From Candidatus Zixiibacteriota bacterium (GTDB lineage Bacteria; Zixibacteria; MSB-5A5; SM1-73): a stretch of DNA of 64,000 bases. Of this stretch, positions 26,188-55,526 are shown piece after piece. The notes below the pieces were generated by a model that saw nothing but the letters and a program-made list of their open reading frames with translations, was not told the origin of the DNA and ran no database searches. Where the stretch lies: assembly GCA_049694315.1 (NCBI GenBank), contig JBAVQU010000008.1:17665-81664 (forward strand), in the 5' to 3' direction. A program made the translations under genes and the position numbers. Each line of letters opens with the position of its first letter. The stretch's first letter is position 1.

Positions 26188-26241
26188 AGAGAATAAAAAT
26201 TCAAACTAAAAATTGAAAATTAAGATTTAAACTTCAAACCT

Positions 26242-27423: not shown

Positions 27424-27475
27424 GCTCGTTCCTCACTTTCTGTTTGACTCAAGTGGCGGCTCTCTATCGGGCGCG

Positions 27476-28096
27476 CTATCTGCCCCCCAGATACGTTCTT
27501 TCGATCCCCAGGATGATTCTCAAGGAGGTGGAGATGGTTCCCAGTCCGATTCCGATATAAAGTCCTCTTTTAGCGGCCATGCTGGGAACGCGTAAAATCC
27601 AGTTAGCAGAGTCCGGAATCCAATGGGAGGTGTAACTGCCCAGCGGGACACGACCTAACATGACGATGATAGCGACCAAGAGAAGCAGGCCCGCTTCCCA
27701 GCTTCGGGCACGAAATCCGCGGTAGGCTGCGGATGCGACAAAGAAAGCCAGAAGCGAGAACATGGTGGATTGCATCGGGGCTTGCATGGTATTGAACATC
27801 CAGAGGAATGGCGTTTTCTCTCCGGTTCCCTGCCACAATCCAAAGATTACCATCACCACCAGTCCCGCCAAGCCGATCAGATTATATCCCCAGCCGGATT
27901 GTATCTGGGTTATCTTTTTCGCATTTAGATTTATGTAGCTGACCACCCCGATCAGCAGGGTGAAGACGAAGATGATCTGCATCCAGTCCAAGACCATCTG
28001 ATAGGCGGAAATGGATGCTCGATGCGGGACGAAGAACTGCACCAGCATGAAGGCACCGAAGATGAAACAGACGATGATGGGAATGGTTCTTTGCAC
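27476..28096 (-). CDS. Polytopic membrane protein, unknown function
   Basis: 206 aa with about 6 hydrophobic helices. Confidence 0.5.
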   Translation of the reverse strand: MQRTIPIIVCFIFGAFMLVQFFVPHRASISAYQMVLDWMQIIFVFTLLIGVVSYINLNAKKITQIQSGWGYNLIGLAGLVVMVIFGLWQGTGEKTPFLWMFNTMQAPMQSTMFSLLAFFVASAAYRGFRARSWEAGLLLLVAIIVMLGRVPLGSYTSHWIPDSANWILRVPSMAAKRGLYIGIGLGTISTSLRIILGIERTYLGGR

Positions 28097-28110
28097 GTTC
28101 TTCCAATGAT

Positions 28111-28163
28111 CCCCTCACCCTTTTTCCTTCTCCCCAGAGGGGAGAGGGCTAGGGTGAGGGGGA
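28111..28163. repeat. GC-rich palindromic intergenic element
   Basis: cccctcaccctttttccttctcccc-agag-gggagagggctagggtgaggggg. Confidence 0.65.
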
Positions 28164-28167
28164 ATCG

Positions 28168-29295
28168 CTAGTACGTCGAAAATAGTCTGATGAACCAACT
28201 TAGCCCAAGGACCCCTGCAATCCCTCCAATCAATATTAGCAAAACAATAACCGCCTTTAACCAATCCTGACCCTTGATGCTTCCTAAGACCTGCTTATCC
28301 TGGGTCAAATATCCGCTGGCAACGAAAAGCTCTTCACCCATCAAAGTATAATCGCATGCCACTATGAAGAAAGACAACTGGATGGTGGAATCGGTCCCGG
28401 CAATCTGAAAAGCTCCGATTGAGTTGCCGGTTTCCGCCAGAATCAACGCTTCCGCTTCGAAAGTTCCCAAAAACAGATTAGTAGCAGGAAGCTGGCGGGT
28501 CATGATCCCGTCCACTGCGGCCGCATAACCAAACTGGCTTTGGGTGACAAAAAATATGTTGTCGGGATGGTATGCGTCGGGATGACCTGCCCGGGAGCAT
28601 GCTTCTTTTACCACCTCTTGAGCCGTGGTCATCACCACCGGGTCGTAGTTGGGGAATATCAGGGGAGTGTTGTATTCCGCAGTCTTCTCCGCCACACTGG
28701 ATAGGATATTCATGGATGCCATGGTGGCCACTCGATCCATCTTGCCCAAACCCGCGGAATAAAGTATCGGCTTACCCATCTCCGTGGCTCGACCGATGGC
28801 ATCGTCTATGGCCTGCAATCCTGCAATCGGCCGGATATAGAGTCTTCTGCCTGATTTGGCATATAGAATAAATCCCAGGATAAACATAAAAGAGATAATC
28901 GTACCGAAAAGAATGTTGGTCCTTTGAGTGTTGAACCATTGGCCTTTCGAAACCACAGGTCCAGTGACTGCCGAAAACAAAGTATCGTTGCCCTTGGTCC
29001 CTTTTAGAAAATAAGAGTATCTGACTCCATCTTTGACATGTGTGTCAACAAATTGGGTGTCTGTGGATGAAATCTTCCCGGCCAACTCGAAACCTTCATC
29101 ATGCTCTGCCGATCTCCAGATTTCATATTCGGTTTTGCTGGTGTCCTGGGGCAACCCTTCAAAGGTCAGGGTAATACTCTCCCCTCTGTCGTTGGGGGTG
29201 TCCACAGCTTTCAGTTTGACCCGAAGTTGCGCCGAAACGATGCAAGGAAGAAGGAAAAGTGGAAAAAGGAAGATGAGGAATTTTGATTTCAGCAT
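28168..29295 (-). CDS. Signal-peptide and TM-helix hypothetical protein
   Basis: 375 aa with a signal peptide, a beta-rich N-terminal module, an internal TM helix and a C-terminal TM helix. Confidence 0.5.
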   Translation of the reverse strand: MLKSKFLIFLFPLFLLPCIVSAQLRVKLKAVDTPNDRGESITLTFEGLPQDTSKTEYEIWRSAEHDEGFELAGKISSTDTQFVDTHVKDGVRYSYFLKGTKGNDTLFSAVTGPVVSKGQWFNTQRTNILFGTIISFMFILGFILYAKSGRRLYIRPIAGLQAIDDAIGRATEMGKPILYSAGLGKMDRVATMASMNILSSVAEKTAEYNTPLIFPNYDPVVMTTAQEVVKEACSRAGHPDAYHPDNIFFVTQSQFGYAAAVDGIMTRQLPATNLFLGTFEAEALILAETGNSIGAFQIAGTDSTIQLSFFIVACDYTLMGEELFVASGYLTQDKQVLGSIKGQDWLKAVIVLLILIGGIAGVLGLSWFIRLFSTY

Positions 29296-32953: not shown

Positions 32954-33967
32954 ATGAATTTGCACTTATTACTAAAATACCAACGTGCTTTTATTTCATA
33001 CTGGTCTGGCAAAACCAACCTGAAATACCCCCCGCTTTTTTATTCCATAGAGGTTACCAATATCTGCAACTATCGTTGTGGCTATTGTCCACAGAGCAAT
33101 TTGGATAATCACATTATCAAAAAAGGTCAGATGAGCATTGGCCTGTTTGAGGATATTCTAGAGAAGATCGCGAAGCTAAAACCGGTGACACAAATTTATC
33201 TCACCGGAAGTGGTGAACCGCTGATGCATCCTGAGCTGGAGAAGTTCATCTCTTTGTCCAATCAATATGGTTTCATCCCCAGTTTTTCTTCGAACGGTTC
33301 TTTGTTTACCGAAGAGAGGATTGAAAGTCTCATGAATTCCGGAAAATTCTCTTTGACCGTCGATTTTTCACCCCACCGGGAGATTTATGAAACCAATAGA
33401 GCAGGAGGTAACTGGGAATCGGTTTATAAGAATCTAAAGAATCTGCTGAATGCCAAAAGAAAGTTGGGAGGGAATTATCCCAAAGTTGAAATCCGCGACA
33501 TGTCTACCATGGCTTTAAGTTCTTTGAAGGAAAGAGAAAGGTCTCTGTCTGATTTGAAAGGCATGTTTGACGGTCTTCCGGTGGACAGATACTCACAGCT
33601 CAAAGTTCATGGCTGGACCGGTAATGTTGACCGGAGAATCTCCGCCGGTGCCCGAAATAAGAATAAATATCGGCTTTGCACCCATCCCTGGTCGATTTTC
33701 GTAATAACTTGGAGTGGCCAAGTAATCCCCTGTTGTCGGGATTTTGGGTCGGAGTACGTATTAGGAAAGATAGATGGCGAAAATGGCACTACAGGCATCT
33801 GGAACAACGAGAAAACCATATCCTTAAGAAAAGCATTAAAGGAGAAAAAGCCGCAGGAAATCAACATATGCAGAAATTGTGACCGTCCCTGGACCGGAGG
33901 AAGTGTCGCTCGATCCAAGCCGCAGATGATCAAGAGGATTCTGTGGGAAAAAGTTATAAGTAACTAA
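32954..33967 (+). CDS. Radical SAM/SPASM domain protein (stand-alone)
   Basis: CNYRCGYC (Cx3Cx2C) near the N-terminus. C-terminal Cys cluster CTHPW...IPCCRDF...ICRNCDRPW. Confidence 0.75.
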   Translation: MNLHLLLKYQRAFISYWSGKTNLKYPPLFYSIEVTNICNYRCGYCPQSNLDNHIIKKGQMSIGLFEDILEKIAKLKPVTQIYLTGSGEPLMHPELEKFISLSNQYGFIPSFSSNGSLFTEERIESLMNSGKFSLTVDFSPHREIYETNRAGGNWESVYKNLKNLLNAKRKLGGNYPKVEIRDMSTMALSSLKERERSLSDLKGMFDGLPVDRYSQLKVHGWTGNVDRRISAGARNKNKYRLCTHPWSIFVITWSGQVIPCCRDFGSEYVLGKIDGENGTTGIWNNEKTISLRKALKEKKPQEINICRNCDRPWTGGSVARSKPQMIKRILWEKVISN

Positions 33968-35577: not shown

Positions 35578-36690
35578 ATGGCAATTAGTGAGGAATTAAA
35601 ATATGCTGACTTAGAGGAACTCTATATCGACCCACTGAATCCGCGACTTGGTAGAGGTGATGTAGCTGAAGATATAAGCCAAGCTAAGGTGCTTGAGCTA
35701 ATGAAGGATTGGACTCTCGACGAACTGGCGGTGTCATTTCTTGAGAGTGGGGGTTTCTGGACACAAGAGGCTTTACTTGTAACCAAAGAAAAACTGAAAG
35801 GTAAAGAACGTTTGGTGGTAATAGAAGGCAACCGAAGACTCGCTGCGCTGAAATACCTGAAAGATGCACTAGAAGGAAATCCAGCATCTCCTAGATGGAA
35901 AGAAATTGCACGCGGAGCAAAACCGCCAAAAGATCTCTTTACAAGAATTCCATACATACTAGTTGATTCACGTAAAGATATTGAATCGTTCTTAGGCTTT
36001 AGGCATGTAACCGGAATAAAGGAATGGAAACCAGCGGAGAAAGCTGAGTTCATCGCGCGTTTGATTGATGACCGAGGTTTTTCTTATGAAGAAGTTAGAC
36101 GTAAAATCGGTAGTAAGACACCTACGGTTCGTCAGAACTATATCTCGTACCGAATGTTATTACAGATCAAGGACTCAGATCAACAAATCCCTAAAGAGAA
36201 TTTCGAAGAGCGTTTTAGTGTGATGTTCCTTTCCCTAAGAGAAAAAGGTGTTCAGAAATTCCTTCAGATCGCCATAATGGCTGAACCAAAAAAGGCTCAA
36301 AAACCAGTACCAAGGACGCATCTTAAGGCTCTGGGTAACTTCGCCTTGTGGTTATTTGGTGATGAAAATCGGGAACCTCTTTTTACAGATTCGCGTCAAG
36401 TAACTAAGTTCGGGCGCATACTAGAGAGTAGGGATGCTCTTGAATACCTCGAGAGAACCGAGAACCCTAACTTTGAAGTTGCTCACCAACTCGCAGGTGG
36501 AGATGAACCTGAAATAGCAAAACAACTTGAGAAAGCTGCAGATAACATTGAGGTTTCATTGACTCGTGTGCATCTATACAAGAAATCAAAAGACATTCGA
36601 AAAGCAGTAAGTAGATTAGTAGCTGATTCGATGCAGCTATTTGAAATCTTCCCTGATATCAAAACCCAGGTCGAGAAGGATCGCATGTAA
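35578..36690 (+). CDS. ParB/sulfiredoxin N-terminal-domain-like protein
   Basis: IDPLNPR at the N-terminus and VIEGNRRLAAL (ParB-N-type (D/E)GNRR box). SD agaggcgaaaa. Lies in an AT-rich island. Confidence 0.6.
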   Translation: MAISEELKYADLEELYIDPLNPRLGRGDVAEDISQAKVLELMKDWTLDELAVSFLESGGFWTQEALLVTKEKLKGKERLVVIEGNRRLAALKYLKDALEGNPASPRWKEIARGAKPPKDLFTRIPYILVDSRKDIESFLGFRHVTGIKEWKPAEKAEFIARLIDDRGFSYEEVRRKIGSKTPTVRQNYISYRMLLQIKDSDQQIPKENFEERFSVMFLSLREKGVQKFLQIAIMAEPKKAQKPVPRTHLKALGNFALWLFGDENREPLFTDSRQVTKFGRILESRDALEYLERTENPNFEVAHQLAGGDEPEIAKQLEKAADNIEVSLTRVHLYKKSKDIRKAVSRLVADSMQLFEIFPDIKTQVEKDRM

Positions 36691-37628
36691 TGTTTCAATT
36701 GCCGACGAATGGCATTGCTCGTTCAATAAACGAGCATAATTCCAGATTAGATGTCTTTAGTGATTGGCTAGAGGCTTCTGTTCTTTTCAGCGATAGTGAG
36801 CTTTCACGAACGGATGTTGTTGATGCTTTGATCGAACATAGAATCTACGATCAGCAAGACTTCGCTGATCAGTGGGTCACTAACGCATGGGGGGAAATAG
36901 AGCGACGACAAAAGTGCATAGGTAATGGATCGCCGTACGATATTACACCACAAAGAATTTCCAGAAAGTCATCTTGGGAAGATGTCTCTGCATATAGTTT
37001 TTGTTTGCTACTTTCTTTAGTAAACAACTACTCTGGTTTAAATGGACAATGGCAAGAGAAATTTCGAACTGGTTACATCGAACAAGGTGAGCTATTTGAG
37101 CTACTTACTAAGGAATCTTTGGAAAAACAATTCCCTGACTGGAGAATGTATCATACTGGCTGGTCAAGATCATCTCCAAGTAAGTTGATAAAAATTGTTG
37201 ATGAAATTGCGGCACAGCTTGGTGAAACCAAGGGTAATCTTGAACTATGGACATCACCTGATGCACATGAAGCTGGGTTGGATTTGCTTTTTTACAGACC
37301 TTTTGAGGATAACCGAGTCGGTATTCCTCTTTATTTGTTGCAATGTGCAAGCGGGGGTAATTGGACAGACAAACTCCATACTCCATGCTTGAAGACATGG
37401 ACTAAAGTCATTCAATTTGCAGCAACACCACGTAAAGCTTTCGCTACGCCATTTGCACTTGAAGATGGCGTTTTTTGTGGGTATTGCAATCTTGTCGACG
37501 GTCTTTTTCTTGATCGATATCGACTACTTAGCCCTTCTCATGAAGATAAAAACTGGCTTTCAACACAATTGAATAACCGGATTAAAAAGTGGCTCAGACC
37601 CAGAATTAAAACCTTTCCAGCTTATTAA
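36690..37628 (+). CDS. Hypothetical protein, translationally coupled to the ParB-like gene; possible PD-(D/E)xK nuclease
   Basis: TAATG overlap with the upstream stop. GELFELL...EAGLDLLFY...LLQCASGGNWTDK is reminiscent of the Mrr_cat layout; this is weak by-eye evidence. Confidence 0.5.
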   Translation: MFQLPTNGIARSINEHNSRLDVFSDWLEASVLFSDSELSRTDVVDALIEHRIYDQQDFADQWVTNAWGEIERRQKCIGNGSPYDITPQRISRKSSWEDVSAYSFCLLLSLVNNYSGLNGQWQEKFRTGYIEQGELFELLTKESLEKQFPDWRMYHTGWSRSSPSKLIKIVDEIAAQLGETKGNLELWTSPDAHEAGLDLLFYRPFEDNRVGIPLYLLQCASGGNWTDKLHTPCLKTWTKVIQFAATPRKAFATPFALEDGVFCGYCNLVDGLFLDRYRLLSPSHEDKNWLSTQLNNRIKKWLRPRIKTFPAY

Positions 37629-37653
37629 AACGATATACGAATTGAGTGGAAGA

Positions 37654-38958
37654 ATGAAATTCATAGACCTCTTCGCGGGACTCGGTGGTTTTCATTTAGC
37701 ACTCAGACGCTTGGGACATGAATGTGTTTTTGCATCTGAGCTGGATGAACAATTAAGAGAAGTCTACCAACAGAATTTTGATTTGAGGCCGGAAGGTGAT
37801 ATTCGTCAAATCAGTCCTAATAGAATTCCTGCTCATGATATTCTTTGTGCTGGATTTCCCTGCCAGCCATTTTCAAAAGCAGGCGAGCAGGAAGGTTTTG
37901 GGTGCCCCAAATGGGGTGATCTTTTTGATTATGTTCTTTCTGTTCTTGAACACCATCGTCCTTCCTATGCTCTCTTGGAGAATGTTCCGAATCTTCTTTA
38001 CCATAATAATGGTAAAACATGGAAATCTATTCTCTTAAAGCTACATTCTTTAAACTACCATATTGATCACAAGAAACTCTCGCCACATAAGTTTGGTATT
38101 CCCCAAATTAGAGAAAGAATCTTCATAGTTGCTAGCCAATCGCCATTAAACGGTTTCTCGTGGCCAATACCGCCAATTCAATGTGAGCCACATATTAAAT
38201 CAATTTTGGATGAGCATCCCAAGAATGCTAAACCTATAACACCTACAGTCCAGATGTGCTTGGATACATGGCAGAAATTCCTTGACTTATTTCCTAAAGA
38301 CGAAACACTCCCTTCATTCCCGATTTGGGCGATGGAGTTCGGAGCCACATATCCATACATAAAGATAACTCCTTATTCTATAGGTAACTACCGCTTGCGA
38401 CAATTCAGAGGCTCATTTGGCCAATCCCTTGACAAAACAGAACCCTCGAAACGATTAATGTTTTTACCTCCATATGCACGAGTTAAAGAACACTCATTTC
38501 CTGCTTGGAAGGTGGAGTTCATTACAAAGAACCGCAATCTTTTTGAGAAGAACAAGAAGTGGATAAAACTATGGCTGCCAGAAATAAGAAAATTCCCAGC
38601 AAGTTTGCAAAAGCTTGAATGGAATTGTGGCTCGGAGCCACGTAATGTCTATAATTATGTCATCCAGTTTAGAGCTTCTGGTGTGCGCATCAAGAGACCT
38701 TCAACATCCCCCTCCCTTATAGCGATGACCACAACACAAGTTCCCATAATCGCATGGGAAAAACGTTACATGACGCTGCATGAATGTGCGCACTTGCAAT
38801 CGATGGATGAATTAAAGTATCTCCCCTCTTCTGAAACCCGTGCTTACAAAGCACTTGGAAATGCTGTCAATGTCAACTTGGTTATGATGATTGCGAAGAA
38901 TTTACTATCTTCCTCTGATAGAAAAAAGATCTCTCAATTGGAAAGCAAGGTAATTTAG
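37654..38958 (+). CDS. dcm: DNA (cytosine-5)-methyltransferase
   Basis: Motif I DLFAGLGG, motif IV GFPCQPFS, motif VI ENVPNL, motif VIII QIRERIFIV, motif X LGNAVNV. An alternative TTG start lies at 37642. Confidence 0.9.
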   Translation: MKFIDLFAGLGGFHLALRRLGHECVFASELDEQLREVYQQNFDLRPEGDIRQISPNRIPAHDILCAGFPCQPFSKAGEQEGFGCPKWGDLFDYVLSVLEHHRPSYALLENVPNLLYHNNGKTWKSILLKLHSLNYHIDHKKLSPHKFGIPQIRERIFIVASQSPLNGFSWPIPPIQCEPHIKSILDEHPKNAKPITPTVQMCLDTWQKFLDLFPKDETLPSFPIWAMEFGATYPYIKITPYSIGNYRLRQFRGSFGQSLDKTEPSKRLMFLPPYARVKEHSFPAWKVEFITKNRNLFEKNKKWIKLWLPEIRKFPASLQKLEWNCGSEPRNVYNYVIQFRASGVRIKRPSTSPSLIAMTTTQVPIIAWEKRYMTLHECAHLQSMDELKYLPSSETRAYKALGNAVNVNLVMMIAKNLLSSSDRKKISQLESKVI

Positions 38959-39026
38959 CACAGTTTTTCAAGTTCTCACTAACGCTCACTCTTATATTTA
39001 TTTTTCATATCCGTCCGTTTCCAAAT

Positions 39027-39590
39027 ATGAATAATCGCTACCCTTCATACCGTAGCTTTCAACCATCTAATGCGATTTCCTCCGCCAATAAGAAGATGGT
39101 GAAATCAGCTAATACAAGAGCTGAAATTATTCTCCGTCGCTCATTAAGAAAGGCAGGTATGCACTTTCGCATTAACGACCTAAGCATTCCGGGCAAACCC
39201 GATCTTACCTTTCCTCGTTATAAGGTAGCTATTTTTTGTGATGGTGATTTTTGGCACGGCAGAGATTGGCGTCAACTTCGGAAAAAGTTAATGAATCGTG
39301 CTAATTCCTCTTATTGGATCGCTAAGATAATTGCTAATCGTAAACGTGATAGAGCAGTGAATCATCTCTTGTCAAAAATGGGATGGATTGTTGTCCGTAT
39401 CTGGGAAACCGATATTTTATCAGATATCGATAGAGTTTCAAGTTCTCTTTTGCTTCTTTTACATAAAGGTAAGCTCGTCAAAACCTCGTGCCGCGGCGCC
39501 GCTTCTGCAGCCGACACAAGAAAGGGTAACGGGGCACTGCGAAAAAAGAGAAAGAGCCTCACCTATCGTCCCCGCGACAACACGACTTAG
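39027..39590 (+). CDS. vsr: Very short patch repair endonuclease (Vsr) with a C-terminal basic tail
   Basis: SAN...EI.LRR.L...G..FR.N....PGKPDL.F......IFCDGDFWHG, followed by IVVRIWE. Confidence 0.85.
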   Translation: MNNRYPSYRSFQPSNAISSANKKMVKSANTRAEIILRRSLRKAGMHFRINDLSIPGKPDLTFPRYKVAIFCDGDFWHGRDWRQLRKKLMNRANSSYWIAKIIANRKRDRAVNHLLSKMGWIVVRIWETDILSDIDRVSSSLLLLLHKGKLVKTSCRGAASAADTRKGNGALRKKRKSLTYRPRDNTT

Positions 39591-39743
39591 GTGCAGCCGC
39601 TCATTTTATCGAACACCTCAGTTCGGCAGAATGCGACCCCGACCTTCTCCTTTGTTTGAGCAGAACATCCGAAATTGGGCATGCCCAGAAACTCACAGGG
39701 CGAGCAAAAGATCTTGCTCGCCCCAGTGACATTTGTCCTCATC

Positions 39744-39926
39744 TTAACCGAATTTACAGCAGGCGCACCAGCAATAGATCGGCGGCTCGAGGGTGCAGTA
39801 CATGCACCAGGCTGTGCACCTATTGGCACTGGCGTGGTTGGGAGCATAGAACGCGGTGAATCCAAAAACCAGGGCCACAACCGCGAAGATCAGCACGAGG
39901 ACTCTGAGCTTCCTTAAGGCTTTCAT
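39744..39926 (-). CDS. Cys-rich small protein B (signal/anchor helix plus 7-Cys C-terminus)
   Basis: ATG at 39926 preceded by ggaggtga. MKALRKLRVLVLIFAVVALVFGFTAFYA, then ...CTAWCMYCTLEPPIYCWCACCKFG. Paralogue of 40034-40255. Confidence 0.6.
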   Translation of the reverse strand: MKALRKLRVLVLIFAVVALVFGFTAFYAPNHASANRCTAWCMYCTLEPPIYCWCACCKFG

Positions 39927-40033
39927 CTGTCATCACCTCCTCTCTTGGTCTTTGATCTTGAACCGATTTTGCGACATCAGGCTGAATTGGCACTAGATGG
40001 TTTATTGAAAACGTCCCATCCAAGCTTGTCGGA

Positions 40034-40255
40034 CTATCGAGCCGGGGAAGTCGGACAAAGACGACACTGTTCCCAGCAGACGATGGGAGGATCCATGGTG
40101 CAGGAAAGAACCCAACAGCAGTGCCCGGGATCACCTGCGCCTGGAGCGCTGAGCACGTTCAGTCCCAAGACCAATGCCAGCATCGCGATGAGTAACACGA
40201 ATATCCTAACTTGCCTGAGAAGCGTTCCCAACTTAACTCCCTTTCGAAAACTCAA
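40034..40255 (-). CDS. Cys-rich small protein A (signal/anchor helix plus 6-Cys C-terminus)
   Basis: TTG at 40255 overlaps the thioredoxin gene stop. An alternative TTG at 40231 follows aaaggga. Core CCWVLSCTMDPPIVCWEQCRLC. Confidence 0.55.
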   Translation of the reverse strand: MSFRKGVKLGTLLRQVRIFVLLIAMLALVLGLNVLSAPGAGDPGHCCWVLSCTMDPPIVCWEQCRLCPTSPAR

Positions 40256-40842
40256 GGAGACGAGGAGAGCATCTCTTCGATCTCCTTTTTGTAACTGTCC
40301 GAAAGAGGTCCGGGCCAGACTTTGAGAACAACACCATTGGCGTCGATGAGCATGGTCTGGGGAATCACCTCTACTTTATACTTCTCCAATAGCGATTGAT
40401 CAGAGACCATCACGATGGGAAACTCTAACTGAAATTTCTTGGCGAATTCATCTGTCTCTTTGGCTTCAGAATTGGTCGCCCCGAAAAATCTAAACTTTGC
40501 GGAGTTGTATTTTCGACAAACCTCTTTCCAAAACTCCAGATTATGCTCGCATGACGGGCAACCAACAGAAAACCAGAAGAGAACCGTTTTTTGGGAGGAA
40601 GGGTATTCTACCTTGACTTCTTTGCCACTCAGATCGATGCCTGCAAAAGGAGGAACTCTCTCTGCAGGATTGAGGATCTTGAAGGGACCTCGGGGTGCGC
40701 TCAATGCTGCGAGCAGCTTTCGATTCTCCTTAACCAAAAGGAAGATCTCAATGGCCATTGCCAGGACTACAATGAGAAGAACTATCGACCACAACTGGGC
40801 TTTCCAAGAACCGGATTTTTCGGTCATAGCGCATGTCTCCAT
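40252..40842 (-). CDS. TlpA/ResA-like membrane-anchored thiol-disulfide oxidoreductase
   Basis: N-terminal TM helix. WFSVGCPSCEHN (CxxC) within a thioredoxin-fold pattern. Confidence 0.8.
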   Translation of the reverse strand: METCAMTEKSGSWKAQLWSIVLLIVVLAMAIEIFLLVKENRKLLAALSAPRGPFKILNPAERVPPFAGIDLSGKEVKVEYPSSQKTVLFWFSVGCPSCEHNLEFWKEVCRKYNSAKFRFFGATNSEAKETDEFAKKFQLEFPIVMVSDQSLLEKYKVEVIPQTMLIDANGVVLKVWPGPLSDSYKKEIEEMLSSSP

Positions 40843-49967: not shown

Positions 49968-51674
49968 TTATGCAGATTCTTCTGGCGACGACAAGGTGGG
50001 TCGGTGCAAGCCTTTGTGTTTGAAATAGTATGTCTCCGCTAAGGACAGGATATTGAATACGGTCCAGTAGAGGGTCAGTCCGGCGGGAAACTTGAAAAAG
50101 AAGAAGAAAAAGAGAATGGGCATGAAATAAACCATCATCGCCTGCTTAGGGTCTTTGATGGTGATCTTCTGCTGCCAGAACATAGTAGCAGCCATGATGA
50201 CGGGAAGAACGTAGTACGAGTCCATCTGGGAAAGGTCTTTGAGCCAGAAGACGAACTTTGCTCCCCTGAGTTCTATGGTGCTCCGGAATACCACAAACAG
50301 GCCATAGAAGACCGGCATTTGAAAGAGGAGAGGAAGACATCCGGAAAACGGATTTACTCCTGCCTGCTTATACAGCTTCATGGTCTCTTGATTCAAACGA
50401 GCAGGGTCCTTTTTGTATCTCTCCTTCAATTGAGCCAGCTTGGGTCCAAGCTCCTGCATCTTCCAGCTGGTGTGGGTGCTTTTGCGAGTGAGGGGATGGA
50501 AAACCACTTTCATCAATATGGTAAAGAAGATGATCACCAGCCCGTAGTTGGGGAAGATCTTGTGCAAGTTCACAAATAGCCACAAAACCGCTATGGAAAA
50601 CGGACGAATGATCTTCCAGCCCAAGTTGACCATGCGGTCCAAGTCCATGCCGTAGCTTCTGAGAAGGTGATAATCTATAGGTCCCACGTAGATCATGAAC
50701 TGATCCTTCAGCCCGAGCGTCCGCTCCAGGGGCATCTCCAGAGTCACGCCAATCCTTCTGGTTTCAACTTGCTCCTGTCCCCTAAGGGTGAGACTTCTTC
50801 TGCCCCAGGCAGAAAATCCCGCTCCCTTCTGGGATAGGGGGACGATGGCCGCGGCAAAGTACTTGGAGCGGGTGGCCACCCACTTAGTTTCTCCTGAGGC
50901 CGCCTCCTGCAGAGTCCCGATCTCAGCCCCTTTGGGTTGATTGAATTTCTTTATCTCCGACAACTCGGTTCCCATCATAGAATAAGCCGAGAAGTAGTTG
51001 AAATCCTCGGTTCTGTTCTTCTCGGTAGAGTTAAGTCCCGATGCCCAACCCAGAAGGTACTTTCGACCCAAATCGAGTTGACCTGATCCGCTGACTTCAA
51101 GCTCCAGACCAAAGTCGTACCGCCCGTTGACAAAAGTGTATCTCTTGGTGATCTGAGTCCCTGACTGCGAAGGAAGCACAAAATTGATGGCTCCCGCCGT
51201 CGCGGTTTTCCCCAGAACCAGCTCCTCCTTATCCGCCTGGAAGTTGTAAGAGTCCAGATTGACGTTGCTGTCGGGAAAGGTCAGGTTTAGGGGAGGAGAG
51301 GACTCGTCCAAAGGAATAAGCTGTATGTTTTTACCATCGGAGTCGACGTATTTTTTCAGAGTGAAGCTTTTCAGCACTGCCCCGCGGGTGGAAAACTCAG
51401 CCGTGTAAAGCTCGGTTTCCACCTTCACGATTCTTTCCTTAAGGAGAGTATCAGCCGGAGCCAGGCCCCGGGCTTTGGATTCCACCTGTGCCGGAGAAAT
51501 CTCCTTCAACTCTGACGCAGAAGGCAAAAGCTTTCCGGTGGAATCAGTCGTCGTTTGAGGCTCAACCGGAGTTCTTTGAGCCTTCTTCCCTCCGGTAATC
51601 CATTCCATGTACAACGGGTAGAGAATGATGATCACCAGGATCAAGACGAAACCGATGATACTCTTTTTGTCCAC
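49968..51674 (-). CDS. yidC: Membrane protein insertase YidC
   Basis: Large periplasmic P1 region, then the conserved C-terminal core (NYGLVIIFFTILMKVVFHPLT...KLYKQAGVNPFSGCLP.L.Q.PVF). Synteny with yidD-rnpA-rpmH. Confidence 0.9.
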   Translation of the reverse strand: MDKKSIIGFVLILVIIILYPLYMEWITGGKKAQRTPVEPQTTTDSTGKLLPSASELKEISPAQVESKARGLAPADTLLKERIVKVETELYTAEFSTRGAVLKSFTLKKYVDSDGKNIQLIPLDESSPPLNLTFPDSNVNLDSYNFQADKEELVLGKTATAGAINFVLPSQSGTQITKRYTFVNGRYDFGLELEVSGSGQLDLGRKYLLGWASGLNSTEKNRTEDFNYFSAYSMMGTELSEIKKFNQPKGAEIGTLQEAASGETKWVATRSKYFAAAIVPLSQKGAGFSAWGRRSLTLRGQEQVETRRIGVTLEMPLERTLGLKDQFMIYVGPIDYHLLRSYGMDLDRMVNLGWKIIRPFSIAVLWLFVNLHKIFPNYGLVIIFFTILMKVVFHPLTRKSTHTSWKMQELGPKLAQLKERYKKDPARLNQETMKLYKQAGVNPFSGCLPLLFQMPVFYGLFVVFRSTIELRGAKFVFWLKDLSQMDSYYVLPVIMAATMFWQQKITIKDPKQAMMVYFMPILFFFFFFKFPAGLTLYWTVFNILSLAETYYFKHKGLHRPTLSSPEESA

Positions 51675-51710
51675 GAAGGTCTCCTAAGGCATGAATTCGC
51701 CGGCTTACAG

Positions 51711-51932
51711 CTACGGCAGGGGATCGAATCCTCCCGGGTTAAACGGATGGCAACGGACAAGCCTTTTCACCGAAAGCCACGCTCCTTTGATTATTCCAAA
51801 CTTCCGGAAAGCCTCTATGGCATACTCAGAACAGGAAGGATGGAACCGGCAAGAAGGGGGAAACGCAAGTCCCAACGTGTTCTGGTAGATCCTGATAAGA
51901 AAAATCGGGATGCGATTGATAGTTTGTTCCAT
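51711..51932 (-). CDS. yidD: Membrane protein insertion efficiency factor YidD
   Basis: CRFHPSCSEYAIEAFRKFG...RL.RCHPF..GG.DP. I start it at ATG 51932; the ORF track extends to 51977. Confidence 0.85.
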   Translation of the reverse strand: MEQTINRIPIFLIRIYQNTLGLAFPPSCRFHPSCSEYAIEAFRKFGIIKGAWLSVKRLVRCHPFNPGGFDPLP

Positions 51933-52130
51933 CTCATCACCCGCCGGGGTCAAGCTGATACTGTCAGGCTGGGACATTCTCGACCGGCTGTGTCCTCATG
52001 TTTGGCAGAAAAAATCTTCTCACTTCGCTTTACTAAACCGGGACATCGTGCGGACTGAGGTCCGAACCAAGCGCGATCAAGTGAATCAGATCATCTTCGC
52101 TGGGGTGCACGTCCGGTGAGTTCCCGTTGG

Positions 52131-52466
52131 TCAACGGATCAAACTCACCATCTCTGCTTTCAACTCGCGGACGTCCTTCTCTGCGGCAGCAGACCGGCAG
52201 AGCACTACCACCTGTTCATCCCTGCCGAATCTATCCTTGTTCCTCCTCAGAAATTCCCGGATCATTCTCTTGAGTCTGTTTCTTGAAGCCGCCTTTTTGA
52301 TCCCCCGGGCGACTTTGATGCCGAACTTTTGTCCCTCATGGTGATCGGCCCGCAGCCGGAATACGACTAAGCTCGCCCCTCCTCTCCTGGCGCCGTGTTC
52401 CAGGATTCGCTTGAACTCAAATTCCTTTTTGACAACTAAGGTTTTGGGGAATCCTTCGTTTTTCAA
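52131..52466 (-). CDS. rnpA: Ribonuclease P protein component
   Basis: 111 aa basic protein between rpmH and yidD. K.A..RNRLKR..RE motif. Confidence 0.85.
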   Translation of the reverse strand: MKNEGFPKTLVVKKEFEFKRILEHGARRGGASLVVFRLRADHHEGQKFGIKVARGIKKAASRNRLKRMIREFLRRNKDRFGRDEQVVVLCRSAAAEKDVRELKAEMVSLIR

Positions 52467-52491
52467 ATAAGGTCACTCTGTGCCGGAGAGG

Positions 52492-52638
52492 TTACTTGGG
52501 AACCCGAACAGTCAATCGGGCTCGACCTTTGGCCCGACGTCTTTTCAGAGTCTTTCTGCCGCCCTTGGTGGACATTCGTTTCCGAAAACCGTGCTCCCTG
52601 GCCTTTTTCACGTTAGAGGGCTGAAAAGTTCTTTTCAT
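52492..52638 (-). CDS. rpmH: 50S ribosomal protein L34
   Basis: Not in the ORF track. Minus-strand translation is [48 protein letters not shown] (48 aa), preceded by SD aaaggagac. Confidence 0.95.
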
Positions 52639-52782
52639 GCTGTCTCCTTTTTATGCTCGCCACGCCATTAGCGTTCCAATATACGCGCCGATCCCATGTC
52701 CGTCAAGAAAAAAGTGCCGCTCGCCGCTGCGGCTGCTGAATAAAAAATCTTGACTTTTCATTCTCTGTAGGTTAATTAAATA

Positions 52783-52811
52783 TTGACGGCGGAGAATAAT
52801 CCAAATAAAAT
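52783..52811 (+). promoter_or_regulatory. Candidate sigma-70 promoter of the DCD / GNAT-ASCH operon
   Basis: TTGACG, 17-nt spacer, TAAAAT, about 40 nt upstream of the ATG at 52853. Confidence 0.4.
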
Positions 52812-52852
52812 TTCATATTTCTTAACTATAAGGGTAATCAACATATCAACAA

Positions 52853-53974
52853 ATGAGCAAAGAAGACTATAAAGAGTTTAGACCTGGTGTTCTAAATCAA
52901 GAGCAGGTTCTTAATCTAGACGGAGCAGTGATTCACAATTTAAAAAACGAAGCTGTTGATCTTTCTGCCTTTGACCTACATATATCTCAACAAGGCTGGG
53001 AAATGAAAGGAAGTATAAAAGCTTCACAAAATACAAATATAGACAAGATAATTAGAGAATTCAGTGAGCACGCCTTGTCAAACGGTGGACCATGGATACT
53101 TAAAACCGGTAAAACCTATATTTTTGCATTACGAGAATATCTCACACTCCCGAATAACAGCAAGCTCTTTGGCCAAGCTACCGGTAAGAGCTCGATAGGG
53201 AGATTGGATGTACTTACGAGATTAATGGTAAATAACTGCCCCTCTTTTGATACAATAAAAGATGATGGCTATAAGGGGAGTCTTTATTTAGAGGTCACCC
53301 CGATCACTTTCCCAATACAAGTTCAGGAGGGCAATGCTCTTTGCCAATTGAGACTTTTTAGGGGTTTACCTGAATGGAGTGAAATCAAAGAAGAGGAACT
53401 ACAACTGTTTGGTCCAATGATTTTAAAAGAGGATGGAGAACCGAAAATAGTAGATGTGAAAGAACTTACTGTAAACCTAATGCCCGATGAAAAAGGGATT
53501 TCTGTATTTGGGACTAAAGAAAAGAAAGAAATTGAGGAGAAGAATATAGTCGTGGATTTAACCAAAGGAACGGAGTTCCACAACCCCAAAGAGTTTTGGG
53601 AAGATATTAAGTTGAAAAAAGACTTTACATTGGAAATAACACCAGAAAGATTTTATATTCTCAGATCAAAAGAAAGATTTAAATTACCTCTTAATGTAGC
53701 TGTTTCTTGTCAGGCTGTTTCTGAGACCTTAGGAGAGTTAAGAATTCACTATGCTGGTTTTGTTCATCCGGGTTTTGGTTTTGACCGAGAGAAAGGGACT
53801 CCAATAATATTTGAGGTGAGAGGACATAATGTCACGACATTTCTACGTGATGGTGAGACGCTTGCCCACTTCAAATATTATTGGATGTCGGAACGTTGTA
53901 AAGAACAGAAAAAAAGTGGTTACGAAGAACAGGAACTGAAACTTTCACGATACTTCAAGGAATGGACTAAATGA
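52853..53974 (+). CDS. Long-form 2'-deoxycytidine 5'-triphosphate deaminase (DCD, dUTPase-fold) family protein
   Basis: GKSSIGRLDVLTRLM....FD.....GY.G.LYLEV.PITFPI.V..G..L.QLR...G in the first half. FYILRSKE...LP.......QAVSETLGELRIHYAGFVHPGFGF......TPIIFEVRGH and C-terminal LKLSRYF in the second half. This matches my recollection of the about 360-aa DCD family. Confidence 0.7.
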   Translation: MSKEDYKEFRPGVLNQEQVLNLDGAVIHNLKNEAVDLSAFDLHISQQGWEMKGSIKASQNTNIDKIIREFSEHALSNGGPWILKTGKTYIFALREYLTLPNNSKLFGQATGKSSIGRLDVLTRLMVNNCPSFDTIKDDGYKGSLYLEVTPITFPIQVQEGNALCQLRLFRGLPEWSEIKEEELQLFGPMILKEDGEPKIVDVKELTVNLMPDEKGISVFGTKEKKEIEEKNIVVDLTKGTEFHNPKEFWEDIKLKKDFTLEITPERFYILRSKERFKLPLNVAVSCQAVSETLGELRIHYAGFVHPGFGFDREKGTPIIFEVRGHNVTTFLRDGETLAHFKYYWMSERCKEQKKSGYEEQELKLSRYFKEWTK

Positions 53975-54999: not shown

Positions 55000-55497
55000 A
55001 GTGGCCTTTTGATTTAATCTCCCACCGCCAGGATCTGAAAAGGAACATCTCCTTGGTCGTGGAATATCTTGCTTAGTCTATATCCTGATCTGTGCCCGCC
55101 GAAACTAACTGAATGCCATGACAATACAGATAAATTACATTCCTCGCACAGGCAATTCACTATTGTCTTCATTTCAAACATTCCAAAACCTTAGCAACCA
55201 AGCTAAATTTGTGCTTCCCTAAAGAGGGAAATAGGGAGTTGTCAATCATCACCAACGCCAAAGAATCGGACCGCTCTTCGATCGACCAACCGCAACTCGA
55301 ATTCTCAGGATTGCTCCACCCGATGAGAACAGTTGATCGGCGTAATGATATGACAAAAAATAGAATAGCCAGTCCGCTCGCGGAAAACATGAGTCGAATT
55401 CAAAATCAGAGACGGCAGGAACCCCCTCCAGAACTCCCTTCTAAGAAAGTCAGGTCATGCAACTTATAAGTTTTCTTCGGTCACCCCATAAAAAGCC

Positions 55498-55526
55498 TTG
55501 ACAAGGAAATCCAAGAGGGTTATTTT
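55498..55526 (+). promoter_or_regulatory. Candidate sigma-70 promoter upstream of dnaA
   Basis: TTGACA, 17-nt spacer, TATTTT, located just upstream of the DnaA boxes. Confidence 0.35.

What the first reader, a model, noticed from the sequence alone, without database searches (positions are those of the whole stretch)
39744..40842. Operon of a TlpA-like thiol-disulfide oxidoreductase with two paralogous Cys-rich small proteins sharing a CT(L/M)(E/D)PPI(Y/V)CW core
On the minus strand, a membrane-anchored thioredoxin-fold protein (CPSC) is followed by a 65-73-aa ORF and, after a short gap, a 60-aa ORF with a strong GGAGGTGA SD. The first ORF overlaps the thioredoxin stop.

Both small proteins have a basic N-terminus, one hydrophobic helix ending in A-x-A/P-like sites, and a short tail with 6-7 cysteines:
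- HCCWVLSCTMDPPIVCWEQCRLC
- RCTAWCMYCTLEPPIYCWCACC

The conserved core with a variable surround, plus a dedicated redox partner, suggests exported disulfide-rich or metal-binding peptides such as bacteriocin-like toxins, metallophores or signalling peptides. I do not recognise the motif.
Basis: partly seen in the sequence, partly recalled or inferred. Interest (0 to 1): 0.7.

Follow-up and report, generated by a model that had tools for sequence, protein, structure and literature searches.

The report
Secreted cysteine-rich hairpin peptides with own thioredoxin
This is a real, previously undescribed gene module of Zixibacteria: a membrane-anchored thioredoxin-like enzyme followed by one to six small genes for exported, cysteine-rich hairpin peptides that it most likely folds by making their disulfide bonds. 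What the peptides do is still unknown.

Summary
On the minus strand lie a ResA/StoA/MauD-like thioredoxin-fold gene (CPSC, N-terminal membrane anchor; 40252-40827), peptide A (65 aa, 40034-40231) and peptide B (60 aa, 39744-39926), ending in a 12-bp terminator-like hairpin.

The module recurs in about 30 loci, and every named one is a Zixibacteria MAG. Every orthologue of this thioredoxin with downstream DNA is followed by 1-6 paralogous peptide genes, most with a full AAAGGAGGTGA Shine-Dalgarno. No other neighbour is conserved.

The peptides match no Pfam or NCBIfam family. Only 27 representatives turn up among 1.84 billion proteins.

- **Selection:** they evolve under purifying selection, and the core is more constrained than the leader.
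- **Export:** the leader is a canonical Sec signal (P-x-T-A-x-A; Ala at -1 in 59/64).
- **Fold:** AlphaFold predicts a beta-hairpin around an invariant Cys pair and a PP turn.
- **Cysteine pairing:** variable Cys come and go in pairs. The only odd Cys sits at +10, a site limited to C/E/D/H next to an invariant Trp.

Best reading: Sec-exported, disulfide-stapled hairpin peptides matured by a dedicated extracytoplasmic thiol-disulfide oxidoreductase. The end function (antagonism, signalling, ligand binding) is unresolved. This is a new variant of a known kind.

The parts
40252..40827 (-). Thiol-disulfide oxidoreductase gene, 191 aa from ATG 40827 (an in-frame ATG at 40842 would give 196 aa). Thioredoxin fold of the TlpA/ResA/StoA/MauD kind.
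   Evidence: Pfam AhpC-TSA 1.1e-11, Redoxin 1.6e-11. NCBIfam ResA 6.7e-15, StoA 1.5e-12, MauD 4.4e-07, all below the curated cut-offs. Nearest solved structures are ResA and StoA. Orthologue alignment A1 gives 63-73% identity and a start at MTEK.
40732..40794 (-). N-terminal transmembrane anchor of the oxidoreductase (LWSIVLLIVVLAMAIEIFLLV), with a Glu inside the helix that is conserved in orthologues.
   Evidence: Read from the sequence. E32 and neighbouring residues are invariant in alignment A1. The same 'VEI' is present in the distant orthologues L021 and L026. Topology was not determined: the positive-inside count is ambiguous.
40549..40560 (-). CPSC active-site motif.
   Evidence: C95, P96, S97 and C98 are invariant in A1. 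The distant orthologue L026 has CSSC.
40034..40231 (-). Peptide A precursor gene, 65 aa from TTG 40231 (the mechanical ORF from TTG 40255 gives 73 aa). Subtype A: CCWVLSCTMDPPIVCWEQCRLCP, 6 Cys.
   Evidence: Orthologues are P0005-P0007. Alignment and dN/dS. SD AAAGGGAG lies at 40237-40244.
40133..40231 (-). Predicted signal peptide of A (residues 1-33, cleavage SAPGAG|DPGH). This site is less canonical than in the other subtypes.
   Evidence: Sequence rule (-1/-3 small residues). AlphaFold gives a helix at 3-27.
40037..40132 (-). Predicted mature peptide A (32 aa). Predicted hairpin at residues 38-44 / 52-58. Inferred disulfides C44-C52, C39-C59, C38-C56, with Glu54 at position +10.
   Evidence: AlphaFold pLDDT is 85-93 in the hairpin. 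Cys covariation and parity.
39744..39926 (-). Peptide B precursor gene, 60 aa. Subtype B: RCTAWCMYCTLEPPIYCWCACCKFG, 7 Cys.
   Evidence: Orthologues are P0002-P0004, P0022, P0024, P0026. dN/dS. SD GGAGGTGA lies at 39933-39940.
39825..39926 (-). Predicted Sec signal peptide of B (residues 1-34: n-region MKALRKLR, h-region, c-region APNHASA|N).
   Evidence: Across 64 family members Ala is at -1 in 59, Ala/Val at -3 in 58, and Pro at -6 in 37/41 long types. AlphaFold gives a helix at 2-27.
39747..39824 (-). Predicted mature peptide B (26 aa). Predicted hairpin at residues 39-44 / 52-57. Inferred disulfides C44-C52, C41-C57, C37-C56, with an unpaired Cys54 at position +10.
   Evidence: AlphaFold pLDDT is 81-91. 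C(-3)/C(+13) covary perfectly, and the odd Cys is always the one at +10.
39697..39724 (-). Terminator-like 12-bp G+C-rich stem-loop, 20 nt after the stop of B, followed by UGUGAGUUUCU.
   Evidence: RNA fold gives -26.7 kcal/mol with z = -3.2 against shuffles. The consensus terminator scan did not call it because the T tract is short.

Best explanation
The operon encodes a self-contained maturation module for exported disulfide-rich peptides.

**Proposed mechanism.**
1. Each peptide is made as a pre-peptide of about 60 aa with a Sec-type signal: a basic n-region, an 18-21-residue h-region, and a c-region P-x-T-A-x-A.
2. The signal threads the Cys-rich C-terminal 17-45 residues across the cytoplasmic membrane.
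3. The co-transcribed thioredoxin-fold enzyme is held at the same membrane face by its N-terminal anchor. It introduces and/or shuffles 2-4 disulfides.
4. These disulfides staple a beta-hairpin built around an invariant Cys-x3-P-P-x2-Cys-Trp turn.
5. Signal peptidase I then releases a small, hydrophobic, roughly neutral, Pro/Trp-rich knotted peptide.

**Functional site.** The scaffold Cys are all paired. The peptide displays one further residue at position +10, which is Cys in B and Glu in A, next to the invariant Trp.

**Likely role.** The released peptides probably act outside the cytoplasm as membrane- or envelope-active effectors, in antagonism or signalling.

**Shown versus inferred.**
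- Shown: gene structure, paralogy, conservation, selection, the exclusive linkage to the thioredoxin, the signal-peptide features, and Cys covariation and parity.
- Inferred: export, cleavage, the outward topology of the enzyme, its direction (oxidase/isomerase), the disulfide map, and the biological role.
For: **Conserved unit.**
- The thioredoxin subfamily is followed by 1-6 peptide genes in all 9 genome loci.
- The same holds in all 13 metagenome loci that have downstream DNA.
- It also holds in loci reached from the peptides and in distant pairs L021 and L026.
- All-vs-all comparison of neighbours finds no other conserved gene.

**Real, highly translated genes.**
- Core dN is 0.02-0.28 in most pairs (up to 0.45) and leader dN is 0.2-0.55 (0.01 in the nearly identical L001/L012 pair), against saturated dS.
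- 62 of 71 genes have an SD, mostly the full AAAGGAGGTGA.

**Sec signal and SPase I site.** Ala at -1 in 59/64, Ala/Val at -3 in 58/64, Pro at -6. The leader is less constrained than the core.

**Hairpin.** AlphaFold models of B and A give two strands flanking the 7-residue PP loop, with pLDDT 81-93. Three Cys are invariant in 64 sequences.

**Disulfides rather than free thiolates.**
- C(-3) and C(+13) co-occur perfectly: 29 both, 49 neither, 0 single.
- C(-5) and C(+15) have phi 0.94.
- 34 of 35 cores with Cys at +10 have an odd Cys count, and 42 of 43 with E/D/H there have an even count.
- Within the C-type alone there are 10 cores with both Cys and 9 with neither.

**Enzyme.** Thioredoxin fold with an invariant CPSC and a membrane anchor, nearest to ResA, StoA and MauD.

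**Precedents for a dedicated thioredoxin-fold partner of a Cys-containing exported peptide or protein.**
- PedC/pediocin, BlpG/thermophilin 13 and BdbA/sublancin (PMC4919988).
- MauD for the six disulfides of the methylamine dehydrogenase small subunit, with MauE as a DsbB-like oxidant in a related FCB phylum (bioRxiv 10.64898/2026.03.05.709764).
Against: - The closest characterised relatives by sequence, ResA and StoA, are reductases, so the direction of the enzyme is not established.
- The positive-inside count for the enzyme's anchor is ambiguous: the N-tail is about +1 and the C-flank about +3. The distant L021 orthologue has an N-tail of +4.
- No immunity, transporter or receptor gene is conserved, as an antagonistic or signalling peptide would usually require.
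- The mature peptides are not cationic: mean net charge is about 0.
- Orthologues are conserved rather than diversifying, unlike many toxins.
- The c-region of the window's A peptide is a less canonical cleavage site.
- Covariation counts are not corrected for shared ancestry.
- AlphaFold secondary structure gives no disulfide map, and Foldseek found no structural relative.
Confidence: 0.5

Rival explanations
1. The peptides are extracytoplasmic metal- or metalloid-binding thiolate peptides: metallothionein-like or chaperone-like ligands for Cu(I), Zn, Cd, As(III) or sulfur species. The TlpA/ResA-type enzyme is a reductase that keeps their Cys reduced, as TlpA does for the Cu-site cysteines of ScoI and CoxB.
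For: - The mature parts are 23% Cys with CC, CxC and CxxxC motifs, and 7 or 9 Cys in about half of them.
- The enzyme's best sequence matches are the reductases ResA and StoA.
- Position +10 is restricted to C/E/D/H, all metal-ligand residues, next to an invariant Trp, with Met frequent nearby.
Against: - Variable Cys are gained and lost in pairs, and the Cys count is even once +10 is set aside. This is the signature of disulfide partners, not of a thiolate cluster.
- The peptides are rich in Trp, Tyr and hydrophobic residues, unlike metallothioneins.
- No metal-responsive regulator, efflux pump or cuproenzyme gene is conserved next to the module.
- The minimal S-type has only four Cys in a twin C-x3-C hairpin arrangement.
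Confidence: 0.2
2. The N-terminal hydrophobic segment is not cleaved. The products are single-pass small membrane proteins whose Cys-rich tails stay at the membrane surface. There they form a stable complex or thiol-disulfide relay with the anchored thioredoxin, for example as redox buffer or sensor subunits.
For: - The h-region is long (18-24 residues) and modelled as one 25-residue helix.
- The leader is well conserved among paralogues.
- The enzyme's own transmembrane helix is highly conserved and carries a buried Glu.
- The A-type c-regions are poorer cleavage sites.
Against: - Ala at -1, Ala/Val at -3 and Pro at -6 are nearly invariant, as expected for signal peptidase I substrates.
- Among orthologues the leader evolves faster than the core, as signal peptides do.
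Confidence: 0.12
3. The peptides are precursors of radical-SAM-modified RiPPs (sactipeptide- or ranthipeptide-like thioether peptides), and the thioredoxin is an accessory of that pathway.
For: In one lineage (L001-L004, L012, L029) a radical SAM/SPASM peptide maturase overlaps the start of the thioredoxin gene. It is preceded by two further Cys-rich 43/48-aa ORFs and an ABC transporter. The maturase is related to the Clo7bot, TIGR04463 and CefB maturases, at 1e-78 to 1e-91 but below cut-off.
Against: - No such maturase is next to the module in the window (tblastn). The window's radical SAM gene at 32954-33967 is an unrelated housekeeping-type enzyme between lysS and lolC/E.
- It is also absent from most other loci.
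- The leaders are Sec signals, not RiPP leaders.
- The maturase lineage has its own signal-less candidate substrates.
Confidence: 0.05
4. The small ORFs are chance ORFs or remnants of a degraded larger gene.
For: They are short, were unannotated or named 'hypothetical' in all sources, and match no Pfam or NCBIfam family.
Against: - There are 64 homologous clusters with an invariant Cys framework.
- dN is far below dS.
- Strong Shine-Dalgarno sequences are conserved.
- Order and spacing after the thioredoxin are conserved.
- A confident structured model is obtained.
Confidence: 0.01

Closest known systems
Bacteriocin operons with a dedicated thioredoxin-fold accessory protein (PedC with pediocin PA-1, BlpG with thermophilin 13, BdbA/BdbB with sublancin 168)
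   Same: A small exported Cys-containing peptide is encoded beside its own CXXC thioredoxin-fold protein, which is thought to ensure correct disulfides (PMC4919988).
   Different: - The enzyme here is not a PedC/BrcD-family member; its hits are ResA, StoA and MauD.
- Export is by a Sec signal, not a double-glycine leader with a C39 ABC transporter.
- No immunity gene is present.
- There are up to six paralogous peptides with 4-9 Cys each.
- The peptide sequences are unrelated.
- The host is a Gram-negative-type candidate phylum.
MauD (with MauE) and the methylamine dehydrogenase small subunit
   Same: A membrane-anchored TlpA-like thioredoxin is dedicated to a small, exported, very disulfide-rich polypeptide in the same operon. 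MauD is proposed to act like DsbA, downstream of the DsbB-like MauE (bioRxiv 10.64898/2026.03.05.709764). The MauD model aligns to the window enzyme including its anchor region.
   Different: - The score is far below the MauD cut-off: 29.6 against 188.6 bits.
- No mauA, mauB, mauE or mauG was found among the window ORFs scanned.
- The substrates are peptides of about 25-30 residues, not a 130-residue enzyme subunit.
ResA / StoA / TlpA / CcmG extracytoplasmic thiol-disulfide reductases
   Same: Nearest relatives of the enzyme by sequence and by solved structure. They share the N-terminal anchor and a CxxC thioredoxin domain.
   Different: - Those enzymes reduce apocytochrome c, spore-cortex factors or Cu-site proteins, and depend on CcdA/DsbD.
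- Here there is no cytochrome-maturation or CcdA gene nearby, and the conserved partners are the peptides.
- All equivalog cut-offs are missed by a wide margin.
Two-disulfide beta-hairpin host-defence peptides (tachyplesin, gomesin, protegrin) and twin-CX3C hairpins (from my own knowledge)
   Same: The minimal S-type members have C-x3-C ... C-x3-C around a turn. AlphaFold predicts a beta-hairpin for A and B.
   Different: - The loop is 7 residues with a Pro-Pro.
- Net charge is about 0 rather than strongly cationic.
- Extra Cys pairs and Pro-rich tails are present.
- The origin is bacterial, with a Sec signal.
- There is no sequence or Foldseek similarity.

Membership tests
TlpA/ResA/StoA-like membrane-anchored thiol-disulfide oxidoreductases (the enzyme) | Thioredoxin/redoxin fold | tested here: met
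   Pfam AhpC-TSA 45.2 bits and Redoxin 44.6 bits, both above the gathering scores. PDB hits to ResA and StoA at 9e-11 to 5e-10.
TlpA/ResA/StoA-like membrane-anchored thiol-disulfide oxidoreductases (the enzyme) | CxxC active site | tested here: met
   CPSC is invariant in 5 orthologues. L021 has CPSC and L026 has CSSC.
TlpA/ResA/StoA-like membrane-anchored thiol-disulfide oxidoreductases (the enzyme) | Catalytic domain faces the outside of the cytoplasmic membrane | not testable with these tools
   An N-terminal anchor is present, but the flanking-charge count is ambiguous. This needs PhoA/LacZ fusions.
ResA, StoA or MauD proper (NCBIfam equivalog/subfamily level) | Score above the curated cut-off | tested here: not met
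   ResA 55.4 against 170 bits; StoA 47.7 against 210; MauD 29.6 against 188.6.
Class II bacteriocin locus with PedC-type accessory protein | Exported Cys-containing peptide adjacent to a thioredoxin-fold CXXC protein | tested here: met
Class II bacteriocin locus with PedC-type accessory protein | Double-glycine leader plus C39-peptidase ABC exporter, and an immunity gene | tested here: not met
   The leaders are Sec signals with an A-x-A site. No ABC exporter or conserved small partner gene was found in the window or across loci.
Class II bacteriocin locus with PedC-type accessory protein | Antimicrobial activity of the peptide | not testable with these tools
   Requires folded peptide and an indicator-strain assay.
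Sec (type I) signal peptides | Basic n-region, hydrophobic h-region, and a c-region with small residues at -1/-3 and a helix breaker near -6 | tested here: met
   There are 2-4 Lys/Arg in the first 10 residues and an uncharged run of 14-24 residues. Ala is at -1 in 59/64, Ala/Val at -3 in 58/64, and Pro at -6 in 37/41. The window's peptide A is the weaker case.
Metallothionein-like thiolate-cluster peptides | High Cys content in CC/CxC/CxxC motifs | tested here: met
   23% Cys in the predicted mature parts.
Metallothionein-like thiolate-cluster peptides | Few aromatic residues, and Cys acting as free thiolate ligands rather than pairs | tested here: not met
   Trp 6.5% and Tyr 4.8%. Paired gain and loss of Cys and even parity point to disulfide partners.
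Radical-SAM RiPPs (sacti-/ranthipeptides) | rSAM/SPASM maturase encoded with the precursor | tested here: not met
   Absent beside the module in the window and in most loci. Present only in the L001/L012/L029 lineage.
Two-disulfide beta-hairpin antimicrobial peptides | Beta-hairpin stapled by cross-strand Cys pairs | tested here: inconclusive
   The hairpin is predicted with pLDDT 81-93, and the invariant C0/C+8 pair flanks the turn. No coordinates or disulfide map are available.
Two-disulfide beta-hairpin antimicrobial peptides | Strong net positive charge | tested here: not met
   Mean net charge is -0.3, with a range of -5 to +3.

The most novel reading that the evidence does not exclude
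The peptides are not toxins. They form a phylum-specific extracytoplasmic thiol-peptide system.

- Disulfide-stapled hairpins each present one reactive or ligand residue (Cys, Glu, Asp or His at +10, beside an invariant Trp).
- These residues bind or carry a metal, a metalloid or a sulfur species, or buffer redox stress in the periplasm of an anaerobe.
- The dedicated TlpA-like enzyme recycles them.

This would be a gene-encoded peptide counterpart of low-molecular-weight thiols, operating outside the cytoplasm.
Probability: 0.2. Interest if true: 0.8.

Novelty: new variant of a known kind. Interest (0 to 1): 0.6.

Why it matters
**A new family in an uncultured phylum.** The work defines a new, sharply delimited family of gene-encoded, disulfide-rich mini-peptides together with a specialised thioredoxin. 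All members were previously labelled 'hypothetical'.

**Possible new scaffold.** If the peptides are bioactive, they offer a compact scaffold of 17-45 residues with 2-4 disulfides and a Pro-Pro turn. Natural variation across five paralogue types is already available for antimicrobial or peptide-engineering work.

**A route into anaerobe disulfide formation.** The dedicated enzyme gives a tractable substrate-enzyme pair for asking how anaerobes that lack DsbA/DsbB make or edit extracytoplasmic disulfides. This question has just been reopened by the MauE work.

**Testable predictions.** The covariation-based disulfide map and the C/E/D/H site at +10 are concrete predictions that can be checked experimentally.

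Tried and rejected
**Searches that found nothing.**
- Pfam and NCBIfam scans of both peptides and of related small ORFs gave no family.
- A Foldseek search of the peptide B model against the PDB gave only meaningless hits, E about 9.
- tblastn of peptide B against the plasmid and phage collections gave no match. There is therefore no sign of a mobile bacteriocin cassette.
- Five literature searches found no description of the family. They did turn up the analogues used here: PedC and MauD/MauE.

**A radical-SAM link for the window, looked for and rejected.** tblastn with the L001 maturase, its two candidate precursors and the ABC transporter hit nothing relevant. The only hit was the unrelated rSAM at 32954-33967, with 19.5% identity. 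NCBIfam places that gene nearest a tungsten-cofactor maturase, and it lies between lysS and lolC/E.

**Technical dead ends.**
The thioredoxin alignment was used instead.
- The consensus terminator scan did not call a terminator after ORF B. Folding the region showed the hairpin.
- The A-B spacer has no significant structure, z = +0.75.

**Readings considered and rejected.**
- A lipoprotein reading: there is no lipobox before the first Cys.
- Haem attachment: there is no conserved CxxCH.

**No electron-donor or acceptor gene found.** Pfam scans of the window's large ORFs returned no CcdA/DsbD, DsbB/VKOR or MauE.
Full report
**1. What is there**

On the minus strand of the window lie three consecutive genes.

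*The enzyme.* It occupies 40252-40842 as a mechanical ORF.
- It matches Pfam AhpC-TSA, Redoxin and Thioredoxin_8 above their gathering scores.
- Its best NCBIfam hits are ResA (6.7e-15), StoA (1.5e-12) and MauD (4.4e-07). All are far below the curated cut-offs.
- The nearest solved structures are ResA and StoA.
- Alignment with four orthologues (63-73% identity) shows the protein starts at MTEK, that is ATG 40827, giving 191 aa.
- The same alignment shows an invariant CPSC and a strikingly conserved N-terminal transmembrane helix with an internal Glu.

*Peptide A.* It is a 73-aa ORF from TTG 40255, which overlaps the enzyme's stop. However, all orthologues align from the next TTG at 40231 (65 aa), which is preceded by AAAGGGAG.

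*Peptide B.* It is 60 aa (39744-39926) with GGAGGTGA 6 nt upstream.

*Operon end.* A 12-bp G+C-rich stem-loop (39697-39724; -26.7 kcal/mol, z = -3.2) follows B and probably ends the operon.

A and B are clear paralogues, with BLASTP E = 5e-16.

**2. The peptides are real genes of a small, sharply delimited family**

- Single-sequence searches of 5.8 billion proteins found three homologue clusters besides the window's own protein for B, and three for A.
- A profile of 36 family members found 64 clusters. All are unnamed or 'hypothetical', and the only organism name is candidate division Zixibacteria.
- An exhaustive HMMER pass over 1.84 billion representatives found only 27 with E < 1e-3.
- Neither Pfam nor NCBIfam has a model.
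- There are no matches in the plasmid or phage collections.
- No paper was found that describes the family.

Selection and translation signals:
- Orthologous pairs have saturated synonymous divergence (dS about 1-2).
- dN is 0.02-0.28 in the Cys-rich core for most pairs (up to 0.45 in the most divergent pair) and 0.2-0.55 in the leader (0.01 in the nearly identical L001/L012 pair).
- Both parts are therefore under purifying selection, and the core is the more constrained.
- 62 of 71 distinct family genes carry a Shine-Dalgarno sequence. In most it is the full AAAGGAGGTGA, 5-8 nt upstream. This argues for strong translation.

**3. The conserved unit is enzyme plus peptides, and nothing else**

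Contexts reached from the peptides always show a 190-193-aa thioredoxin immediately upstream and 2-6 paralogous peptide genes spaced about 70-135 nt apart.

- Searching 185,579 species-representative genomes with the enzyme alignment returned 9 loci. All are Zixibacteria MAGs, though some are labelled 'uncultured Ignavibacteria'. Each has 1-6 peptide genes directly downstream.
- The metagenome scan returned 14 more loci. All 13 that have downstream DNA carry peptides.
- Two distant pairs keep the linkage. In L021 the enzyme stop overlaps the peptide start. In L026 the active site is CSSC.
- Three very distant peptide homologues on short, high-GC contigs have no adjacent thioredoxin (L022/23, L024, L025).
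- An all-against-all comparison of flanking ORFs found no other gene shared by all loci.

The window itself is chromosomal, with dnaA, dnaN and yidC nearby. It is syntenic with locus L009 at about 80% protein identity.

**4. Anatomy of the peptides**

Alignment of 36-64 members resolves five paralogue types:

| Type | Cys | Example core |
|---|---|---|
| S | 4 | KRCLLVCMFDPVYECKVVCFK |
| A | 6 | CCWVLxCTMEPPIVCWEECRPCP (the window's first peptide) |
| A2 | 6 | CCYRVC..PP..CWDVCKPCP |
| C | 7-9 | CDCWCMICMLEPPYWCWCECCPCP |
| B | 7-9 | RCTAWCMYCT..PPIYCWCECC (the window's second peptide) |

Each type is conserved across species. The diversity is therefore old paralogy, not hypervariability.

*Leader.* The N-terminus has 2-4 Lys/Arg, then 18-24 uncharged residues, then a c-region. 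Across the alignment Ala is at -1 in 59/64, Ala or Val at -3 in 58/64, Thr at -4 in 46/64, and Pro at -6 in 37/41 long-type members. This is the classical signal peptidase I site under the (-3,-1) rule, which is established knowledge. The first Cys follows 1-4 residues later. The window's A peptide (SAPGAG|DPGH) is a weaker site.

*Mature part.* The predicted mature peptides are 17-47 residues (mean 30). They are 23% Cys, 16% Pro and 6.5% Trp, with net charge near zero.

*Predicted fold.* AlphaFold2 with the 64-sequence alignment models both window peptides the same way:
- a long helix (the signal);
- a low-confidence linker;
- a beta-hairpin, at residues 39-44/52-57 in B and 38-44/52-58 in A, with pLDDT 81-93;
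- strands that flank the 7-residue T-x-[DE]-P-P-x-x loop closed by the invariant Cys pair.

**5. Disulfides or thiolates?**

I anchored 78 distinct cores on the invariant C0...C+8 pair and asked which Cys come and go together.

- Cys at -3 and +13 co-occur perfectly: 29 with both, 49 with neither, none with one.
- Inside the C-type alone the split is 10 with both and 9 with neither.
- Cys at -5 and +15 co-occur in 54 cores and are both absent in 22, with two exceptions.
- Position +10, next to a Trp that is present in 77/78 cores, holds only Cys (35), Glu (20), Asp (16), His (6) or Trp (1).
- 34 of 35 cores with Cys at +10 have an odd number of Cys. 42 of 43 with Glu/Asp/His there have an even number.

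Apart from +10, then, every Cys has a potential partner, and partners are gained and lost together. That is what disulfide pairs do, and not what a metallothionein-type cluster requires.

By elimination the predicted maps are:
- B: C44-C52, C41-C57, C37-C56, with Cys54 unpaired.
- A: C44-C52, C39-C59, C38-C56, with Glu54 at the same site.

These counts are not corrected for shared ancestry, so they are an inference, not a proof.

**6. Mechanism proposed**

1. The pre-peptides are exported by Sec.
2. Their Cys-rich tails emerge at the outer face of the cytoplasmic membrane.
3. The co-expressed, membrane-anchored thioredoxin-fold enzyme forms and/or shuffles the 2-4 disulfides.
4. Signal peptidase I releases a compact hydrophobic hairpin that displays the +10 residue beside Trp.

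The linkage, the signal features and the Cys pairing pattern are shown. Export, cleavage, outward topology, and oxidase/isomerase direction are inferred.

*Direction is the weakest step.* ResA and StoA are reductases. However, thioredoxin-fold partners dedicated to disulfide formation in exported peptides or small subunits are well documented:
- PedC, BlpG and BdbA for bacteriocins (PMC4919988).
- MauD for the six disulfides of the methylamine dehydrogenase small subunit.
- MauE, recently shown to act like DsbB in Calditrichota and Thermodesulfobacteriota (bioRxiv 10.64898/2026.03.05.709764).

The positive-inside count for the enzyme's anchor is ambiguous in the main clade and clearer in L021.

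*Biological role is open.* The following argue against a classical bacteriocin or pheromone, but do not exclude a Sec-exported effector:
- no conserved immunity, transporter, receptor or regulator gene;
- neutral charge;
- conserved orthologues.

**7. Rivals**

- *Metal- or ligand-binding reading, with the enzyme as reductase.* It keeps some weight because of the Cys density, the ResA/StoA affinity and the C/E/D/H site. The pairing and parity pattern and the aromatic-rich composition argue against a thiolate cluster.
- *Uncleaved membrane-anchored reading.* It is disfavoured by the nearly invariant A-x-A site and by the faster-evolving leader.
- *Radical-SAM RiPP reading.* It applies at most to one lineage. 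There, an rSAM/SPASM maturase related to Clo7bot, TIGR04463 and CefB, two signal-less Cys-rich ORFs and an ABC transporter sit directly upstream, translationally coupled to the enzyme. The window has nothing of the kind next to the module.
- *Chance ORFs.* This is excluded.

**8. Novelty and verdict**

The general design, an exported Cys-containing peptide with its own thioredoxin-fold helper, is known. The following are not described in the libraries and literature I could search:
- this peptide family;
- its hairpin / PP-turn / Cys framework;
- its tandem arrays of up to six conserved paralogue types;
- the dedicated ResA/MauD-like enzyme subfamily;
- the restriction to Zixibacteria.

I rate it a new variant of a known kind, of moderate-to-good interest. 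It offers a concrete, testable substrate-enzyme pair for extracytoplasmic disulfide chemistry in an uncultured anaerobe phylum, and a possible new disulfide-rich peptide scaffold.

Noticed in passing
window 35578-39590 (+): A four-gene defence or restriction-modification island sits directly beside the module. It comprises a ParB-nuclease-like protein matching PADLOC PD-Lambda-5_A / PDC-M38A (370 aa), an unknown 312-aa protein, a C-5 cytosine methyltransferase (438 aa) and a Vsr mismatch endonuclease (187 aa). It lies between the module and the genes that flank the module in the related locus L009.
   Followed up: partly
L001 2856-6601 (also L002-L004; L012 and L029 carry the same lineage's peptide array, but the DNA held there starts too close to the thioredoxin to show these genes): In one Zixibacteria lineage the thioredoxin gene is translationally coupled to an upstream radical SAM/SPASM peptide maturase. 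The maturase is near Clo7bot, TIGR04463 and CefB but below all cut-offs. It is preceded by two signal-less Cys-rich ORFs of 43 and 48 aa (..C.CYC.PKL.KLMIWGE) and an ABC-2 transporter. This looks like an undescribed ranthipeptide-like RiPP cluster fused to the module.
   Followed up: partly
window 25402-29211 versus L009 6172-9053: The window is syntenic with L009 at about 80% protein identity (DUF6754, a 206-aa and a 264-aa protein, Peptidase_S11, DUF1611). In L009 the module sits divergently next to DUF6754. In the window it is inverted and about 10 kb away, with lysS, an rSAM gene, lolC/E and the defence island in between.
   Followed up: partly
window 40732-40794 (-); L021, L026: The transmembrane anchor of the thioredoxin is unusually conserved. 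It carries an invariant Glu inside the helix (A-[VI]-E-I), even in distant orthologues. This hints at a specific intramembrane contact, perhaps with the peptide leaders.
   Followed up: no
window 12173-12520 (-): A 115-aa ORF holds two copies of a Cys-rich unit (GLCLTCDHVRSCSYPRNPDQPVWQCEEFE / GLCLNCENRKTCTFPRPEDGVWRCEEYE). It has no Pfam match and lies between a glutamate-dehydrogenase-family gene and a sigma-54 two-component pair.
   Followed up: partly
window 9453-17422 (-): Three paralogous Glu/Leu/Phe/Val dehydrogenase genes (9453-10715, 10748-12028, 16070-17422) surround a sigma-54 activator response regulator and a GAF histidine kinase.
   Followed up: no
window 49968-58534: yidC (49968-51674), dnaA (55728-57170) and dnaN (57419-58534) are present, so the window probably spans the chromosomal replication-origin region.
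   Followed up: no
L022 855-1064; L024 455-700: Very distant family members that lack an adjacent thioredoxin are flanked by other small signal-peptide-bearing Cys-containing ORFs. One is a 69-aa protein ending ..CRFVLCAYPDCLPNEHTEIPAGQCCPVCVPN. None has a Pfam match.
   Followed up: partly
L001 887-1954; L013 3703-4772; L016 4424-5384: In three loci a Cys-rich DUF2769 protein (74 aa) and a 234-aa c-type cytochrome lie upstream of the module. L021 has a 626-aa multihaem cytochrome next to it. A link to cytochrome or redox metabolism was not examined.
   Followed up: no
window 5072-7576 (-): An unusually long (834 aa) radical SAM/SPASM protein lies about 33 kb from the module. Its function was not examined.
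   Followed up: no
P0054, P0057, P0065, P0082-P0085: Several database members are frameshifted or truncated versions of family peptides: the leader is intact and the core is out of frame. Some copies may be decaying, or these may be assembly errors.
   Followed up: no
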